From Promethearchaeota archaeon (GTDB lineage: Archaea; Asgardarchaeota; Lokiarchaeia; Sigyniarchaeales; SOKP01): a stretch of DNA of 36,302 bases. Numbering within the stretch: position 1 is the first letter of the stretch; every line of letters begins with the position of its first letter. The stretch lies in assembly GCA_019057795.1 (NCBI GenBank), contig JAHLWS010000010.1:1-36302 (forward strand), in the 5' to 3' direction. This document shows positions 6,829 to 26,098 of this stretch, piece after piece. The notes under the pieces were generated by a model. It had not been told where the DNA came from, did not search any database, and saw only the letters and a list, made by a program, of their open reading frames with translations. A program made the translations under genes and the position numbers.

Positions 6829-6922
6829 GCCCTCATGGCTTAGCGGTAGAGCAGCTGACTTGTATAACCTATTCAAGTTTCAAGACATCAGCAGGTCGTG
6901 GGTTCAAGTCCCACTGGGGGCT
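6829..6922 (+). tRNA. tRNA-Thr(TGT) with 22-nt canonical 37/38 intron (6865-6886)
   Basis: Acceptor GCCCTCA/TGGGGGC, D arm GCTT/GAGC, anticodon stem GCTGA/TCAGC, anticodon TGT 6861-6863, T arm GTGGG-TTCAAGT-CCCAC. BHB central helix CTTG/CAAG. CCA is not encoded. Confidence 0.95.
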
Positions 6923-14693: not shown

Positions 14694-14870
14694 TTATTTA
14701 GATAAATTTTGATATTTTTTTCTCAGATAAGCCATTCTTATCTGATCTTCGCTTTCAATTACACCAGGGTAGGCATCTGAGATATCAAGCATCATCATGA
14801 GAGGGGCATTATCAGAATTCCAATCTTTATAATACTCTAATATCATATCAGGTTCTATTTTTCCGGCCAT
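14694..14870 (-). CDS. 58-aa microprotein (MAGKIEPDMILEYYKDWNSDNAPLMMMLDISDAYPGVIESEDQIRMAYLRKKYQNLSK), not in ORF track
   Basis: Open ATG..TAA frame; strong SD GGAGGTG (14881-14887) 10 nt upstream; convergent with dapL. Confidence 0.75.
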   Translation of the reverse strand: MAGKIEPDMILEYYKDWNSDNAPLMMMLDISDAYPGVIESEDQIRMAYLRKKYQNLSK

Positions 14871-14919
14871 TTCTTTTTTTCACCTCCTTTTTATAATTTA
14901 AATTTTTACGCAGAAAACT

Positions 14920-15152
14920 AAAACCCCATTCCACCTTTTTCTAAAAAATTGAGAAAGTATTACACTAAGAGAATAAATCCAAACAATTTAAAAGAAAAAG
15001 AGTAAGAAATAGGATTTATTCTCTTCATAATACTGTAACAGTGGGAATAATGGCTCTCTTGCAGCCAGCCCATGTAATAGTAGTATTATGTCGTGAAAAA
15101 TTCATTATTGTAAGAATAAAACGAGTGTATACTAATAAATATTGTGGGTTTT
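14920..15152. ncRNA. Putative structured RNA or leader forming a four-way junction
   Basis: Abutting helices P1 14956-14966/15124-15133, P2 14967-14980/15012-15025 (14-bp perfect), P3 15026-15090, P4 15091-15124; possible outer stem 14920-14926/15146-15152. Confidence 0.55.
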
Positions 15153-15296
15153 TTTTCCCATCTGTTTTGATATTAATGTTTTACTTTGTCATTTTTGTCG
15201 AGAGCGAGATTTAATAATTCTTTAAATCAATTGAACCATAAATTAATTTATAAGAATAAAATGGATATTCTTAATTTTTATTATAAATTGAGACCG

Positions 15297-16616
15297 ATGG
15301 ATAAAAAAATCGTACTAGTAGGCGCGGGTAGTACCTCATTTGGCCCTTCTACTTTATTAGATCTTTATCAAAGCGATGTTCTAAGTGGATCAACCGTTGT
15401 CTTACACGATATCAATAAGGACCACTTAGAAATCATTTTTGAGTTAATTGAAGCTGAAAATAAGATCCATAATAATAAATTCAATGTTGAACACACCACA
15501 AACCGCAAAAAAGCTTTGAAAGGAGCAGATTTCATTATTAGTTCTATCGAAGTTGGAGATCGTTTTAAATTGTGGAGAGAAGATTACGAGATTCCTAGAA
15601 AGTATGGGTCTACTCAGATATTAGGAGAATGTGGTGGCCCTGGAGGGACTATGCACTCGTTTAGGATTATTCCTCCAATAGTAGAAATTGTGAAAAATGT
15701 TGAGGAAATATGTCCCGATGCGTTTTTCATTAACTTTTCAAATCCGATGGCTAGAGTATGCTTAGCAATCAAAAGAACGGCTCCAAATCTTAAATTCGTA
15801 GGACTTTGCCATCAAATCGGATTTCTTAATTATCATTTACCCAAAATGGTGAAAAAGAAATTGGATAATTTAAAGTTAAAGCCGTATGGATTAAATCACT
15901 TTGGGTTTTTAATGGGGCTCGAGGAATTAGCTAGCGGTAAAGATTTAATGCCAGAATTTAATAGTAAGGCAAGTGAGTACTTTAAACAACACGAAGACAG
16001 GTTTGAATTTTCTACCTTAACTTTTGAGGTTTATAAAAGATTTGGCTATCTTCCCTATGTAGGTGATAATCATCTCGGTGAATATTTACAATTCGGAGAA
16101 GAGTTCACTGAAACGCAAGATATGATCGATTGGATTGATAATACTGATAAACACGGTAAAAGGATTAATAGACGCGTTTTAAGAAACTACAAACGCCTTA
16201 AAGAAGGGAGGTATCTTAAGAAAGGAATGCTCTCTAAGGGATCTTCTGGAGAAAGAGCAATCCCTATTATTGAAGCAATAATTACAGATGAAAATACTTA
16301 TGAGAGCGCTGTAAACATTCCAAATGACGGGATCATTGAAAATTTACCTCAAGACCTCGTTGTCGAATGCCCAGTTACGGTGGATAAAGATGGCGTACAT
16401 GGTGTCAAATGGGGAATGTTGCCAAAAGACATTGCCGCAATACTTAGAATTGAAGCGATTATTCAGGATTTATGCGTTGAAGCCATTTTAAAGAAGTCAA
16501 AAGATATAGCAATAACAAGCTTAGCTGTTGATCCAAATGTGGGAAGTTTTGAAATTGCGGAAAAGATTTTTACCGAAATAAAATCTAACAGTAATTACTA
16601 TGATTATTTTAGATAA
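15297..16616 (+). CDS. Glycoside hydrolase family 4 (NAD+/Mn2+-dependent alpha-galactosidase/glucosidase)
   Basis: KIVLVGAGSTSFG Rossmann start, GECGGPGG, INFSNP, GLCH, GLNHF. ATG 15297 is preferred over the track's 15186. Confidence 0.9.
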   Translation: MDKKIVLVGAGSTSFGPSTLLDLYQSDVLSGSTVVLHDINKDHLEIIFELIEAENKIHNNKFNVEHTTNRKKALKGADFIISSIEVGDRFKLWREDYEIPRKYGSTQILGECGGPGGTMHSFRIIPPIVEIVKNVEEICPDAFFINFSNPMARVCLAIKRTAPNLKFVGLCHQIGFLNYHLPKMVKKKLDNLKLKPYGLNHFGFLMGLEELASGKDLMPEFNSKASEYFKQHEDRFEFSTLTFEVYKRFGYLPYVGDNHLGEYLQFGEEFTETQDMIDWIDNTDKHGKRINRRVLRNYKRLKEGRYLKKGMLSKGSSGERAIPIIEAIITDENTYESAVNIPNDGIIENLPQDLVVECPVTVDKDGVHGVKWGMLPKDIAAILRIEAIIQDLCVEAILKKSKDIAITSLAVDPNVGSFEIAEKIFTEIKSNSNYYDYFR

Positions 16617-25594: not shown

Positions 25595-25759
25595 TTAGTT
25601 AAGATTCTTCTCTTTCCATTCCTGTAAAAACTTTTTAAAGTTGTTTATCGGAATTCCTATCGAATTTATTTTTTCTCGATTACATTTAACTCTTTCCTTT
25701 GAAGGCTGGTTATTATGGAAACTTAGTTCCCAATCAAAATAAGAACTTGATTTTGACAT
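25595..25759 (-). CDS. 54-aa microprotein A (MSKSSSYFDWELSFHNNQPSKERVKCNREKINSIGIPINNFKKFLQEWKEKNLN)
   Basis: Open ATG..TAA frame; clear paralogy with adjacent 25925..26098. Confidence 0.8.
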   Translation of the reverse strand: MSKSSSYFDWELSFHNNQPSKERVKCNREKINSIGIPINNFKKFLQEWKEKNLN

Positions 25760-25788
25760 GATAAAAGTATTTTATGTTTTTACTTATT

Positions 25789-25817
25789 TGTAAATTGTAT
25801 AAAAAAATGTATTTAAA
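25789..25817 (-). promoter_or_regulatory. Promoter-like element of microprotein A, duplicated at 26140-26168
   Basis: 24/29 nt identical to 26140-26168; begins with TTTAAA TATA-like box on the minus strand. Confidence 0.55.
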
Positions 25818-25924
25818 CCTCTTTAGATTTTCAATGAATTTCGTACTAAAAGAACATAAATATATAAAAAAGCAAAAAATAAGGATGAAAAATAAAAAAG
25901 CGTTAGATAATAAGTTAAATTATA

Positions 25925-26098
25925 TTAGGAAAGGTTTCTATTCTTCCATTTTCTCAAATAATTTTCAAAGTCATCGTCAGCAATCCCAATTGAATTTAAT
26001 CTTTTTTTTTTTGTAAACATAATTTTTGAAGTGTTATCTGTGTTATTACCTTTAAAACCTAACGACCAATCATAATAAGAAACTACTTTTGATGACAT
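25925..26098 (-). CDS. 57-aa microprotein B (MSSKVVSYYDWSLGFKGNNTDNTSKIMFTKKKRLNSIGIADDDFENYLRKWKNRNLS)
   Basis: Open ATG..TAA frame; shares SY[YF]DWxLxF and NSIGI..F..[FY]L..WK..NL with microprotein A. Confidence 0.8.
   Translation of the reverse strand: MSSKVVSYYDWSLGFKGNNTDNTSKIMFTKKKRLNSIGIADDDFENYLRKWKNRNLS

What the first reader, a model, noticed from the sequence alone, without database searches (positions are those of the whole stretch)
14920..15152. Unannotated intergenic four-way-junction RNA next to a microprotein gene
Seen: four helices abut with essentially no spacer. P1 is AGTATTACACT/AGTGTATACT (14956-14966/15124-15133, one bulge). P2 is a perfect 14-bp AAGAGAATAAATCC/GGATTTATTCTCTT around a 31-nt A-rich loop. 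P3 is a long interrupted stem (CATAATACT/AGTATTATG, TGGG/CCCA, TGGCT/AGCCA). P4 is TCGT/ACGA plus TTATT/AATAA. An outer AAAACCC/GGGTTTT stem ends in T8 at 15149-15156. I do not recognise it as tRNA, SRP, RNase P, SECIS or a known riboswitch. Inference: either a plus-strand ncRNA ending at T8, or a minus-strand structured 5' leader controlling the SD-led 58-aa ORF (riboswitch- or type-I-TA-like arrangement).
Basis: partly seen in the sequence, partly recalled or inferred. Interest (0 to 1): 0.8.

Follow-up and report, generated by a model that had tools for sequence, protein, structure and literature searches.

The report
Leader-peptide RNA switch before microprotein gene
The helices are real, but they are not a free-standing four-way-junction RNA: they form the minus-strand 5' leader of the 58-residue gene, threaded by a tiny upstream reading frame, and they belong to a family of about 90 such leaders in one Asgard archaeal family whose tiny frames end in leucine runs before leucyl-tRNA synthetase, which looks like bacterial-style ribosome sensing of amino acids, for which I found no published report in archaea.

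Summary
Observation partly confirmed. Across relatives only P2 and P3 are conserved. P1, P4, the outer stem and the T8 run are lineage-specific, so there is no four-way junction.

Evidence favours the minus strand:
- G.U-only cells outnumber A.C-only cells 100 to 31.
- There is a conserved TATA-like box.
- The invariant SD of the 58-aa ORF lies downstream.

The leader carries a 26-codon ORF (15105-15025) that starts about where transcription should start. It is open in 56/56 orthologous leaders, while both other frames are closed. It runs through P3 and stops at the foot of P2. The P2 loop forms a covarying pseudoknot with 14934-14942.

A covariance model finds about 91 related leaders, all in one Promethearchaeia family. 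One lies before leuS in this genome. The tiny ORFs end in Leu runs before LeuRS (16/16), Ile runs before an FrhB/TrmB-fusion gene, and Val/Leu runs before other microproteins. This window's copy has only a weak Ile/Val/Leu bias.

Best reading: a ribosome-sensing (leader-peptide) leader. How it controls the downstream gene, and in which direction, is not resolved. The scan had already noted this family on other DNA (the leuS leader of this genome and relatives). I found no publication on it.

The parts
15143..15165 (-). Conserved promoter-proximal motif (TGGG ... CCCA here; two direct TGGG repeats in the sister genus). Possibly a transcription-factor site.
   Evidence: Conserved block upstream of the TATA-like box in alignments of 40-56 loci. 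Function not tested.
15132..15139 (-). TATA-like box of the leader promoter
   Evidence: Invariant T[AT]ATAAAT block in 20 species. Across 88 family members the first base of a TATA-like motif lies most often 31 nt before the A of the uORF start codon (42/88; 80/88 within 28-35; 34 nt here).
15025..15105 (-). Upstream ORF: 26 codons plus TGA, inferred to be leaderless. Its last eight codons are Ile Ile Pro Thr Val Thr Val Leu.
   Evidence: An ORF of 20-32 codons starts at the aligned ATG in 56/56 orthologous leaders, while frames +1 and +2 are closed in 56/56. In the wider family it is present in 90/90 members. Coordinates checked.
15026..15090 (-). Hairpin P3 (arms 15082-15090 and 15026-15034; inner GGG/CCC and GGCU/AGCC pairs). 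It lies wholly inside the uORF.
   Evidence: 98% paired in the genus. Present in all 56 leaders: mean contiguous helix 10.6 bp vs 4.6 bp for shuffled 5' regions. There are compensatory changes and matched 3-nt deletions on both arms.
14967..15025 (-). Hairpin P2 (arms 15012-15025 and 14967-14980, 31-nt loop). The uORF stop codon abuts its 5' arm.
   Evidence: 96.8% of cells paired. 9 of 12 pairs change on both sides (73 cells). Covariation score 0.262 vs at most 0.053 for slid partners; 0/500 shuffles reach it. The stop codon lies -6 to +9 nt from the first P2 pair in 90/90 members.
14993..15001 (-). Pseudoknot 5' strand, a U-rich tract in the P2 loop. It is also a candidate oligo-U termination signal.
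   Evidence: Pairs with 14934-14942. 80% paired with 5 of 9 pairs changed on both sides in 56 leaders. 78% paired vs 45-62% for shifted registers in 91 members.
14934..14942 (-). Pseudoknot 3' strand (purine-rich)
   Evidence: Hand-checked compensatory cores in four other genera. The extended 17-nt complement is seen as inverted repeat I5.
14956..14964 (-). Second copy of the P3 5'-arm sequence. It could pair with the P3 3' arm (15026-15034) instead and extend P2.
   Evidence: 9-bp duplex here. At least 7 bp in only 22 of 56 leaders; mean 6.5 vs 5.4 bp for shuffles. Weak and clade-limited.
15093..15100 (-). Candidate P1 5' strand, inside uORF codons 2-5
   Evidence: Complementary to 14876-14883. 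88% of cells paired, but there are only one-sided changes and about half of them break the pair. Not favoured in the partition-function test. Inconclusive.
14876..14883 (-). Candidate P1 3' strand, overlapping the last three bases of the SD and the spacer before the start codon
   Evidence: Inconclusive.
14905..14917 (-). Pyrimidine-rich tract plus GUAAA/GUGAA box. Possible anti-SD or decoy.
   Evidence: Conserved block in alignments. Clear CUCC or CACCUC anti-SD forms occur in relatives. Pairing not tested statistically.
14881..14887 (-). Shine-Dalgarno sequence of the 58-aa ORF
   Evidence: Invariant in 20 of 20 species of the genus and nearly so in 56 leaders.
14694..14870 (-). 58-aa acidic microprotein gene, the regulated gene
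   Evidence: Conserved as a protein at 53-100% identity in the genus. Found in 91 of 131 genomes of the family and in 0 of 19 genomes of three other families. No Pfam or NCBIfam match.

Best explanation
The helices are the core of a roughly 235-nt minus-strand 5' leader of the 58-aa microprotein gene, in an Asgard (Promethearchaeia) archaeon. Order along the RNA: a TATA-like box (15139-15132); then, about where transcription should start, a 26-codon upstream ORF (15105-15025). Hairpin P3 lies inside that ORF, and the stop codon touches the 5' arm of hairpin P2. The U-rich loop of P2 pairs with a purine tract 50 nt further on (pseudoknot). A pyrimidine tract, the SD and the 58-aa ORF follow. 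The leader belongs to a family of about 91 leaders confined, among the genomes searched, to one archaeal family. In that family the tiny ORF ends in a run of codons that goes with the gene behind it: Leu before leucyl-tRNA synthetase, Ile before an FrhB/TrmB-fusion gene, and Val/Leu before two other microprotein families. Proposed mechanism, inferred rather than shown: the ribosome translating the tiny ORF is the sensor. If it moves quickly to the stop codon and leaves, P3, P2 and the pseudoknot fold. If it lingers on the last codons because charged tRNA is scarce, it covers the P3 3' arm and the P2 5' arm, so that fold cannot form. The resulting change in the leader sets expression of the gene behind it, either through access to the SD or through read-through of the U tract. 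The direction of the response is unknown. In this particular copy the codon bias is weak (Ile, Val, Thr, Leu mixed), so its amino-acid specificity is uncertain.
For: Strand and linkage: the element sits upstream of the 58-aa ORF in every orthologous locus fetched from genera g1, g12, g20 and g21 and in two of five g16 loci. It is kept where the GH4 neighbour is absent. G.U-only cells on the minus strand number 100, against 31 A.C-only cells. The SD is invariant. Promoter: the conserved TATA-like box has its first base most often 31 nt before the uORF start (42/88; 80/88 within 28-35). By established knowledge that archaeal TATA boxes are centred about 26-27 nt upstream of the start site, this puts the start at or a few bases before the ATG. 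uORF: open in 56/56 leaders with both other frames closed in 56/56; in the family 90/90, with +1 open in 0 and +2 open in 7. Structure: P2 has 96.8% paired cells and 9/12 pairs with double changes, score 0.262 vs at most 0.053 for slid partners, 0/500 shuffles. P3 is present in all 56 leaders with compensatory changes. The pseudoknot is 78-80% paired vs 45-62% for shifted registers, with several pair types per position. Geometry: the stop codon lies -6 to +9 nt from the first P2 pair in 90/90 members. Family: the covariance model hits 106/126 genomes of the family and 0/24 and 0/125 genomes of other families. A second copy in this genome lies before leuS. Mean residue counts in the last 12 codons by class: LeuRS Leu 7.3 (15 leaders tallied; a 16th also ends in a Leu run); 45-aa microprotein Val 5.1 and Leu 4.4 (n=7); FWKYLD microprotein Leu 5.0 and Val 4.5 (n=6); FrhB-like Ile 5.5 (n=2, plus a GTG-started Ile-rich one seen by eye); 58-aa type Ile 2.3, Val 1.5, Leu 1.1 (n=54). 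Contigs from two RNA libraries span the ORF start and the leader (14863-15076 and 14744-15129). They carry no strand information, and DNA carry-over is not excluded.
Against: There is no transcription start, strand or ribosome data. The start site is inferred from box spacing in AT-rich DNA. One RNA-library contig runs to 15129, beyond the predicted start, though it comes from a relative at 90-95% identity. Within groups of equal-length uORFs there is no third-position excess (for example 16/16/17 variable sites), and synonymous changes are 22-55% of single-base codon differences. The peptide is therefore weakly constrained, and the open frame is the main coding evidence. In this window's class the codon run is weak. 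The link between structure and output is unresolved. P1 has no double compensations. A partition-function test without pseudoknots gave SD accessibility of 0.43 for free RNA, against 0.34 (ribosome at the uORF end) and 0.37 (whole uORF covered), so it does not show opening. The alternative helix is seen in only 22/56 leaders. valS and ileS of this genome have no such leader. The alignments used for P2 were fitted to the model, which leans the counts towards that structure.
Confidence: 0.68

Rival explanations
1. Same sensor, different output. The leader works by premature transcription termination rather than by masking the SD. The conserved U5-plus tract in the P2 loop (14993-15001), 13-30 nt after the uORF stop codon, would be an archaeal oligo-U or factor-dependent termination site. 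Its use would depend on how closely the ribosome follows the polymerase.
For: A U-rich tract is present at that place in essentially all 91 members. The stop codon is 13-30 nt upstream of it, so a ribosome at the stop codon would abut a polymerase sitting on the tract. That archaeal polymerases terminate at oligo-T without a hairpin is established knowledge, not tested here.
Against: The tract's partner strand is conserved and covaries with it, which already explains its conservation. No hairpin-plus-U-tract terminator follows the uORF. RNA-library contigs run through the tract to the ORF start, so read-through molecules exist.
Confidence: 0.3
2. The conserved fold (P2, P3, pseudoknot) is a binding site for a protein or small molecule, that is, a riboswitch or autoregulation by the microprotein. 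On this reading the open frame through it is a by-product or only helps translation of the leader.
For: The stems are conserved in sequence more strongly than pairing alone requires. The peptide sequence is weakly constrained. This window's class has no clear codon run. For the actinobacterial LEU element, which also combines a Leu-run uORF with a pseudoknot, the authors concluded that a protein was the likelier effector (PMC1262725).
Against: One frame is open in 90/90 members while the others are closed. The class-specific Leu, Ile and Val runs go with the downstream gene. The genes served are unrelated (a synthetase, an FrhB/TrmB fusion, several microproteins), which is unlike a single-ligand riboswitch. 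No Rfam family matches.
Confidence: 0.15
3. The tiny ORF encodes a functional peptide in its own right (a small toxin or membrane peptide, type I toxin-antitoxin-like), and the RNA structure only controls its synthesis.
For: Many family members end in 8-13 hydrophobic residues. Type I toxins are about 20-35 residues long with structured leaders (established knowledge).
Against: This window's peptide is not hydrophobic. Peptide sequences differ completely between clades, and even the reading frame across the P3 3' arm differs. The residue in the run follows the downstream gene. No antisense RNA gene or repeat is evident.
Confidence: 0.05
4. An independent plus-strand non-coding RNA with a four-way junction, ending at T8.
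For: The plus strand has the lower z-score in this one sequence (-4.57 vs -3.30). A 5-bp long-range helix (14906-14910 with 15092-15096) fits the plus strand better: 2 vs 22 mismatches in 20 species.
Against: The closing stem, P1, P4 and T8 are not conserved. There is no conserved plus-strand promoter in the sister genus. G.U evidence favours the minus strand in P1, P2 and the pseudoknot. The conserved block ends with a TATA-like box and begins with the SD of the minus-strand gene.
Confidence: 0.03

Closest known systems
Polycysteine leaderless short-ORF attenuators of mycobacteria (Canestrari et al., bioRxiv 10.1101/834739)
   Same: A leaderless short ORF at the 5' end of the mRNA has a run of one amino acid's codons near its end. 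Ribosomes stalled in the run change an mRNA structure that governs the downstream gene. Several loci share the design (the authors' 'ribulon').
   Different: That system is bacterial, senses Cys, and has an experimentally shown duplex that hides the ribosome-binding site. Here the host is an Asgard archaeon and the runs are Leu, Ile or Val. There is a conserved hairpin-plus-pseudoknot module of its own, and the link to the SD is not shown.
Classical leader-peptide transcription attenuators: E. coli leu, ilvB (ivbL), ilvGMEDA and pheM-pheST leaders (own knowledge), and predicted leuS and trpS attenuators of Streptomyces (PMC1262725)
   Same: A short leader ORF carries cognate codon runs, including before an aminoacyl-tRNA synthetase gene. 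RNA helices overlap the ORF, and the ribosome's position decides the fold.
   Different: The classical type needs a terminator hairpin followed by a U tract and an overlapping antiterminator. No such pair is found here: the only conserved U tract lies inside the P2 loop and is base-paired in a pseudoknot. The leader ORF here appears to be leaderless.
Actinobacterial LEU element upstream of leuA (PMC1262725)
   Same: An upstream ORF with a Leu run is combined with a conserved pseudoknot and a proposed stem involving the SD.
   Different: There is no sequence or family relation. For the LEU element, mutation of the Leu codons had little effect and a protein effector was proposed. Here the codon run changes with the downstream gene across classes.
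ermC / cat translational attenuation (as summarised in 10.1101/834739)
   Same: A stalled ribosome on a leader ORF remodels hairpins that control the SD of the next gene.
   Different: Stalling there is caused by an antibiotic and the nascent peptide, not by a shortage of charged tRNA. Those leaders have two simple hairpins and no pseudoknot.

Membership tests
Leader-peptide (ribosome-mediated) attenuator, general | Short translated ORF in the 5' leader, upstream of the regulated gene | tested here: met
   ORF 15105-15025 is open in 56/56 orthologous leaders with the other frames closed, and in 90/90 members of the family. Translation itself has not been observed.
Leader-peptide (ribosome-mediated) attenuator, general | Run of regulatory codons cognate to the function of the regulated gene | tested here: inconclusive
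   Met in relatives: a Leu run before LeuRS in 16/16, mean 7.3 Leu in the last 12 codons of the 15 tallied. In this window's class there is only a weak Ile/Val/Leu bias (2.3/1.5/1.1 of 12), and the regulated gene has no known function.
Leader-peptide (ribosome-mediated) attenuator, general | [quoted passage not shown] | tested here: inconclusive
   P3 lies inside the ORF and P2 starts at its stop codon. An alternative partner for the P3 3' arm gives a 9-bp duplex here, but at least 7 bp in only 22/56 leaders.
Classical transcription attenuator (trp/leu/pheST type) | Intrinsic terminator: G+C-rich hairpin directly followed by a U tract, overlapped by an antiterminator | tested here: not met
   No such site lies between the uORF and the SD. 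The conserved U tract lies in the P2 loop.
Leaderless short-ORF translational attenuator (mycobacterial Cys type) | The short ORF starts at the 5' end of the transcript | tested here: inconclusive
   The spacing from the TATA-like box to the start codon has its mode at 31 nt, with 80/88 within 28-35. This fits a start at or near the ATG, but there are no 5'-end data.
Leaderless short-ORF translational attenuator (mycobacterial Cys type) | RNA duplex that hides the ribosome-binding site and is blocked by the stalled ribosome | tested here: inconclusive
   The candidate P1 (15093-15100 with 14876-14883) is 88% paired but has no double changes. It gives no gain in predicted SD accessibility when the uORF is masked.
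Riboswitch | Match to a described aptamer class | tested here: not met
   No Rfam 15 match at gathering or E-value thresholds, for this leader or for the leuS one.
Riboswitch | [quoted passage not shown] | not testable with these tools
   Needs in-line probing or similar. The diversity of downstream genes argues against a single ligand.
Type I toxin-antitoxin | Small hydrophobic toxin ORF with an overlapping or nearby antisense RNA | tested here: not met
   The 58-aa product is acidic and hydrophilic, and this uORF peptide is not hydrophobic. No antisense gene is evident, but antisense transcription could not be tested.
MITE / dispersed repeat | Many near-identical copies with terminal inverted repeats | tested here: not met
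   BLAST finds one copy in the genome. The only other family member in it is a divergent leader before leuS.
T-box leader | Specifier loop and T-box sequence that bind tRNA | tested here: not met
   No Rfam T-box match.

The most novel reading that the evidence does not exclude
One family of Asgard archaea uses a home-grown, modular RNA device to read the supply of charged branched-chain tRNAs through the ribosome. The device is a leaderless tiny ORF, a hairpin and a pseudoknot. It steers a small regulon: leucyl-tRNA synthetase, an FrhB/TrmB-fusion regulator and several families of acidic microproteins, including this 58-aa gene. That would be the first leader-peptide attenuation system in Archaea, and it would mark the microproteins as starvation-response factors.
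Probability: 0.5. Interest if true: 0.9.

Novelty: new variant of a known kind. Interest (0 to 1): 0.8.

Why it matters
Ribosome-mediated attenuation is a textbook bacterial mechanism. I found no report of it in archaea in the held literature. If it is real, it shows that an archaeon with a eukaryote-like translation apparatus and leaderless initiation senses amino-acid supply through ribosome speed on a tiny ORF. It also supplies a compact, covarying RNA module (hairpin plus pseudoknot) whose two states can be probed directly. Finally, it puts otherwise anonymous microproteins under the same control as leucyl-tRNA synthetase, which gives a first functional handle on them. For annotation, it adds an unannotated promoter, a tiny ORF, a structured leader and a 58-aa gene to what looked like a 430-bp empty gap.

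Tried and rejected
- Rfam at gathering and permissive thresholds on the window region and on the leuS leader: nothing.
- MITE or repeat: BLAST finds a single copy in the genome.
- Plus-strand ncRNA: rejected on conservation of ends, promoter logic and G.U counts. The 5-bp helix 14906-14910/15092-15096, which fits the plus strand better, remains unexplained.
My first count of P3c and P4 used a wrong register and was redone.
- Protein-coding reading of the whole block: indels that are not multiples of three fall outside the uORF. The 37-aa minus-strand and 57-aa plus-strand ORFs are not kept in relatives.
- Test for purifying selection on the uORF peptide: no third-position excess.
- SD-masking by P1: comparative support is weak. 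The partition-function test with ribosome masks showed no opening of the SD. It cannot model the pseudoknot.
- Two-state switch through the repeated P3-arm sequence: seen in only 22/56 leaders.
- Same kind of leader before valS and ileS of this genome: not seen.
- Metatranscriptome contigs: run X6 covers the ORF and GH4 but not the leader, which proves nothing.
- RNAalifold on 13 leuS leaders recovered only P2 and no conserved pairing with the leuS start region.
- Literature searches for archaeal leader peptides or attenuation: no relevant paper.

Full report
**What is in the sequence**

Region 14871-15298 is a divergent gap. On one side is a minus-strand 58-aa ORF (14870-14694) with a GGAGGTG Shine-Dalgarno sequence. 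On the other is a plus-strand family-4 glycoside hydrolase gene. The stretch folds better than dinucleotide shuffles on both strands: z -4.57 on plus and -3.30 on minus, with 0 of 200 shuffles as good. Rfam 15 has no match. BLAST finds a single copy in the 4.95-Mb genome, so it is not a MITE.

A full-length homologue was found in 22 of 24 genomes of the same genus at 71-96% identity, always one per genome. It lies in the same place: aminotransferase, 58-aa ORF, element, GH4. In two species GH4 is not downstream, yet the element, a TATA-like box and a TGGG/CCCA motif are kept. The block therefore goes with the 58-aa ORF.

| Helix | Cells paired |
|---|---|
| P2 | 94% |
| Base of P3 | 98% |
| Distal GGCU/AGCC stem of P3 | 92% |
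| TGGG/CCCA part of P3 | 68% |
| P4 | 59% and 71% |
| Outer stem | 61% |

The T8 run exists only in the four closest relatives. The four-way junction and the T8 end are thus features of this one lineage.

**Strand**

- The 58-aa protein is found in 91 of 131 genomes of the family and in none of 19 genomes from three other families.
- I fetched the upstream DNA of 40 further loci. All 32 from the sister genus g12 carry the element at a fixed distance from the SD, as do the g20 and g21 loci and two of the five g16 loci.
- In the other g16 loci the element lies further upstream, before a 45-residue gene. In the g19 locus I did not find it.
- On an alignment of 56 sense-strand leaders (A2), cells that pair only as G.U on the minus strand number 100. 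Cells that would pair only on the plus strand number 31.
- The middle pair of P2 is U.G in 29 leaders, U-A in 21 and C-G in 3. That is the usual path of compensation on the minus strand and a mismatch on the plus strand.
- The sister genus has no TATA-like box placed for a plus-strand RNA.
- One 5-bp long-range helix (14906-14910 with 15092-15096) fits the plus strand better. I cannot explain it.

**Promoter and tiny ORF**

An invariant TATA-like box (15139-15132) lies 34 nt before an ATG at 15105. From that ATG an ORF of 20-32 codons is open in all 56 leaders, while both other frames are closed in all 56.

In the wider family (below) the ORF is present in 90 of 90 members with enough upstream DNA. 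The first base of a TATA-like motif lies most often 31 nt before the start codon (42 of 88; 80 of 88 within 28-35). Archaeal TATA boxes are centred about 26-27 nt before the start site (established knowledge). This places the start at or a few bases before the ATG, so the tiny ORF would be leaderless. This is an inference; there are no 5'-end data.

The peptide itself is weakly constrained. There is no third-position excess, and the C-terminal halves are unrelated between clades. That pattern suits an ORF whose translation matters more than its product.

**RNA structure**

- P3 lies wholly inside the tiny ORF. It is present in every leader: mean contiguous helix 10.6 bp vs 4.6 bp for shuffled partners. 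It shows compensatory changes and, in one clade, matched 3-nt deletions on both arms.
- The stop codon lies -6 to +9 nt from the first pair of P2 in 90 of 90 members.
- P2 is the best-supported helix: 96.8% paired, 9 of 12 pairs changed on both sides (73 cells), covariation score 0.262 vs at most 0.053 for slid partners, and 0 of 500 shuffles as high. The alignment was fitted to the model, which leans towards this structure.
- The U-rich middle of the P2 loop (14993-15001) is complementary to a purine tract 50 nt downstream (14934-14942). This pseudoknot is 80% paired with 5 of 9 pairs changed on both sides in the 56 leaders. It is 78% paired vs 45-62% for shifted registers in 91 members. The G+C core differs between genera while staying complementary.

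**Less certain elements**

- The 5' segment 15093-15100 can pair with 14876-14883, which overlaps the end of the SD. It shows only one-sided changes, and about half of them break the pair.
- A partition-function test did not show the SD opening when the tiny ORF is masked: accessibility 0.43 free, against 0.34 and 0.37 masked.
- A second copy of the P3 5'-arm sequence (14964-14956) could capture the P3 3' arm. It forms at least 7 bp in only 22 of 56 leaders.

**The family**

A covariance model of the core (R1) finds the leader in 106 of 126 genomes of the family. It finds it in none of 24 genomes of six other families of the class, nor in 125 genomes of 26 other families of the phylum.

Many genomes hold two to six hits. 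The second hit in this genome (contig 21) has the same build: TATA-like box, tiny ORF, P3, P2, pseudoknot. It lies 70 nt before leucine-tRNA ligase.

Tiny ORFs by the gene behind them:

| Downstream gene | Leaders | Content of the last 12 codons (mean) |
|---|---|---|
| LeuRS | 16 | Leu run in all; Leu 7.3 in the 15 tallied, several different Leu codons |
| FrhB-like protein fused to a TrmB-type helix-turn-helix | 3 | Ile run; Ile 5.5 in the two tallied; the third is GTG-started and was read by eye |
| 45-residue microprotein | 7 | Val 5.1, Leu 4.4 |
| FWKYLD microprotein | 6 | Leu 5.0, Val 4.5 |
| 58-aa type (this window's class) | 54 | Ile 2.3, Val 1.5, Leu 1.1 (weak) |

The FWKYLD microprotein sits in tandem behind the 58-aa gene in part of the genus. 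The same U/A-rich arm of P3 is read as Leu codons in the leuS class and as Ile codons elsewhere. This argues that the reading frame is selected.

**Organism**

Records holding the locus are named Promethearchaeota or Promethearchaeia, the Loki lineage of Asgard archaea.

**Mechanism**

Shown:
- a conserved promoter-like box;
- a conserved open tiny frame;
- three conserved pairings, two with good covariation;
- the fixed placement of the stop codon at P2;
- the class-specific codon runs.

Inferred: the ribosome on the tiny ORF is the sensor. A ribosome lingering on the last codons would cover the P3 3' arm and the P2 5' arm and so prevent the P3/P2/pseudoknot fold. A ribosome that terminates promptly would let it form.

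Unresolved: what the fold does to the downstream gene. It could act on SD access, through P1 or a pyrimidine-rich anti-SD, or on read-through of the U tract in the P2 loop. The direction of the response is also unknown. Because this window's copy has only a weak codon bias, it may respond to several branched-chain amino acids or to translation in general.

**Comparison with known systems**

- The nearest analogue in design is the mycobacterial poly-Cys leaderless short-ORF attenuator (10.1101/834739).
- Classical leader-peptide attenuators, including predicted ones before leuS in Streptomyces, and the actinobacterial LEU element share parts of the logic (PMC1262725).
- A defining feature of the classical type, a terminator hairpin followed by a U tract, was looked for and not found. 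I therefore do not file it there.
- I found no paper on leader-peptide attenuation in archaea in the held library.
- Earlier notes of this scan describe the same family at the leuS leader of this genome and at leuS and Val-type leaders of relatives. I reached the leuS copy independently through the covariance model, before that look-up.

**Transcription evidence**

Only assembled contigs of public RNA libraries were available. Two of them span the start of the 58-aa ORF and the leader (14863-15076 and 14744-15129, from relatives at 90-99% identity). They carry no strand information, DNA carry-over cannot be excluded, and one extends past the predicted start.

**Verdict**

The finding is real and interesting, but it is not what its title says. 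It is a cis-acting minus-strand leader with a translated tiny ORF. It is a new class within an unpublished family of archaeal leader-peptide RNA switches.

Noticed in passing
window 14868-14890 and aligned loci (A2): The start codon of the 58-aa ORF varies at the aligned position: ATG here, TTG in part of the genus, CTG in most of the sister genus, and ACG or an upstream ATG in another clade. It is always behind a perfect 7-8-nt SD.
   Followed up: partly
L142 (G008 contig 40) 1250-1900; also L143-L146: In two clades of the genus a second leader of the same family, with a Val/Leu-run tiny ORF and a 60-70-aa acidic microprotein (FWKYLD motif), sits in tandem between the 58-aa gene and the aminotransferase gene. 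It is absent in this window.
   Followed up: partly
L148 2-1432 (-) and L147 1674-2621 (+): A gene for an FrhB/FdhB-like iron-sulfur protein fused to a TrmB-type helix-turn-helix domain is preceded by a leader of the family whose tiny ORF has an Ile run. One relative (L118) uses a GTG start.
   Followed up: partly
L115, L124, L125, L127, L131: A conserved 45-residue acidic microprotein ending in Ile/Leu-Ala-Trp follows the Val/Leu-run leaders in five other genera. No family match was sought.
   Followed up: no
window 15216-15227: A conserved TTCTTTAAA box is probably the GH4 gene's own TATA box. In some relatives the GH4 start codon lies about 25-30 nt after it, so the gene would be leaderless there.
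   Followed up: no
window 25595-26098 (-): Two small ORFs (54 and 57 aa) share a YYDW ... They have no leader of this family upstream (the covariance model finds none there).
   Followed up: partly
window 6829-6922 (+): A tRNA gene matched over 94 nt against a 71-position model, so it probably contains an intron.
   Followed up: no
L161 (record DATKTW010000074.1): A contig carrying this archaeal locus is filed in a public MAG labelled as a Nanopelagicaceae bacterium. That is probably a binning or labelling error.
   Followed up: no
L171 1370-1445: The valS gene of this genome is preceded directly by a tRNA gene and a short spacer, not by a leader of this family.
   Followed up: no
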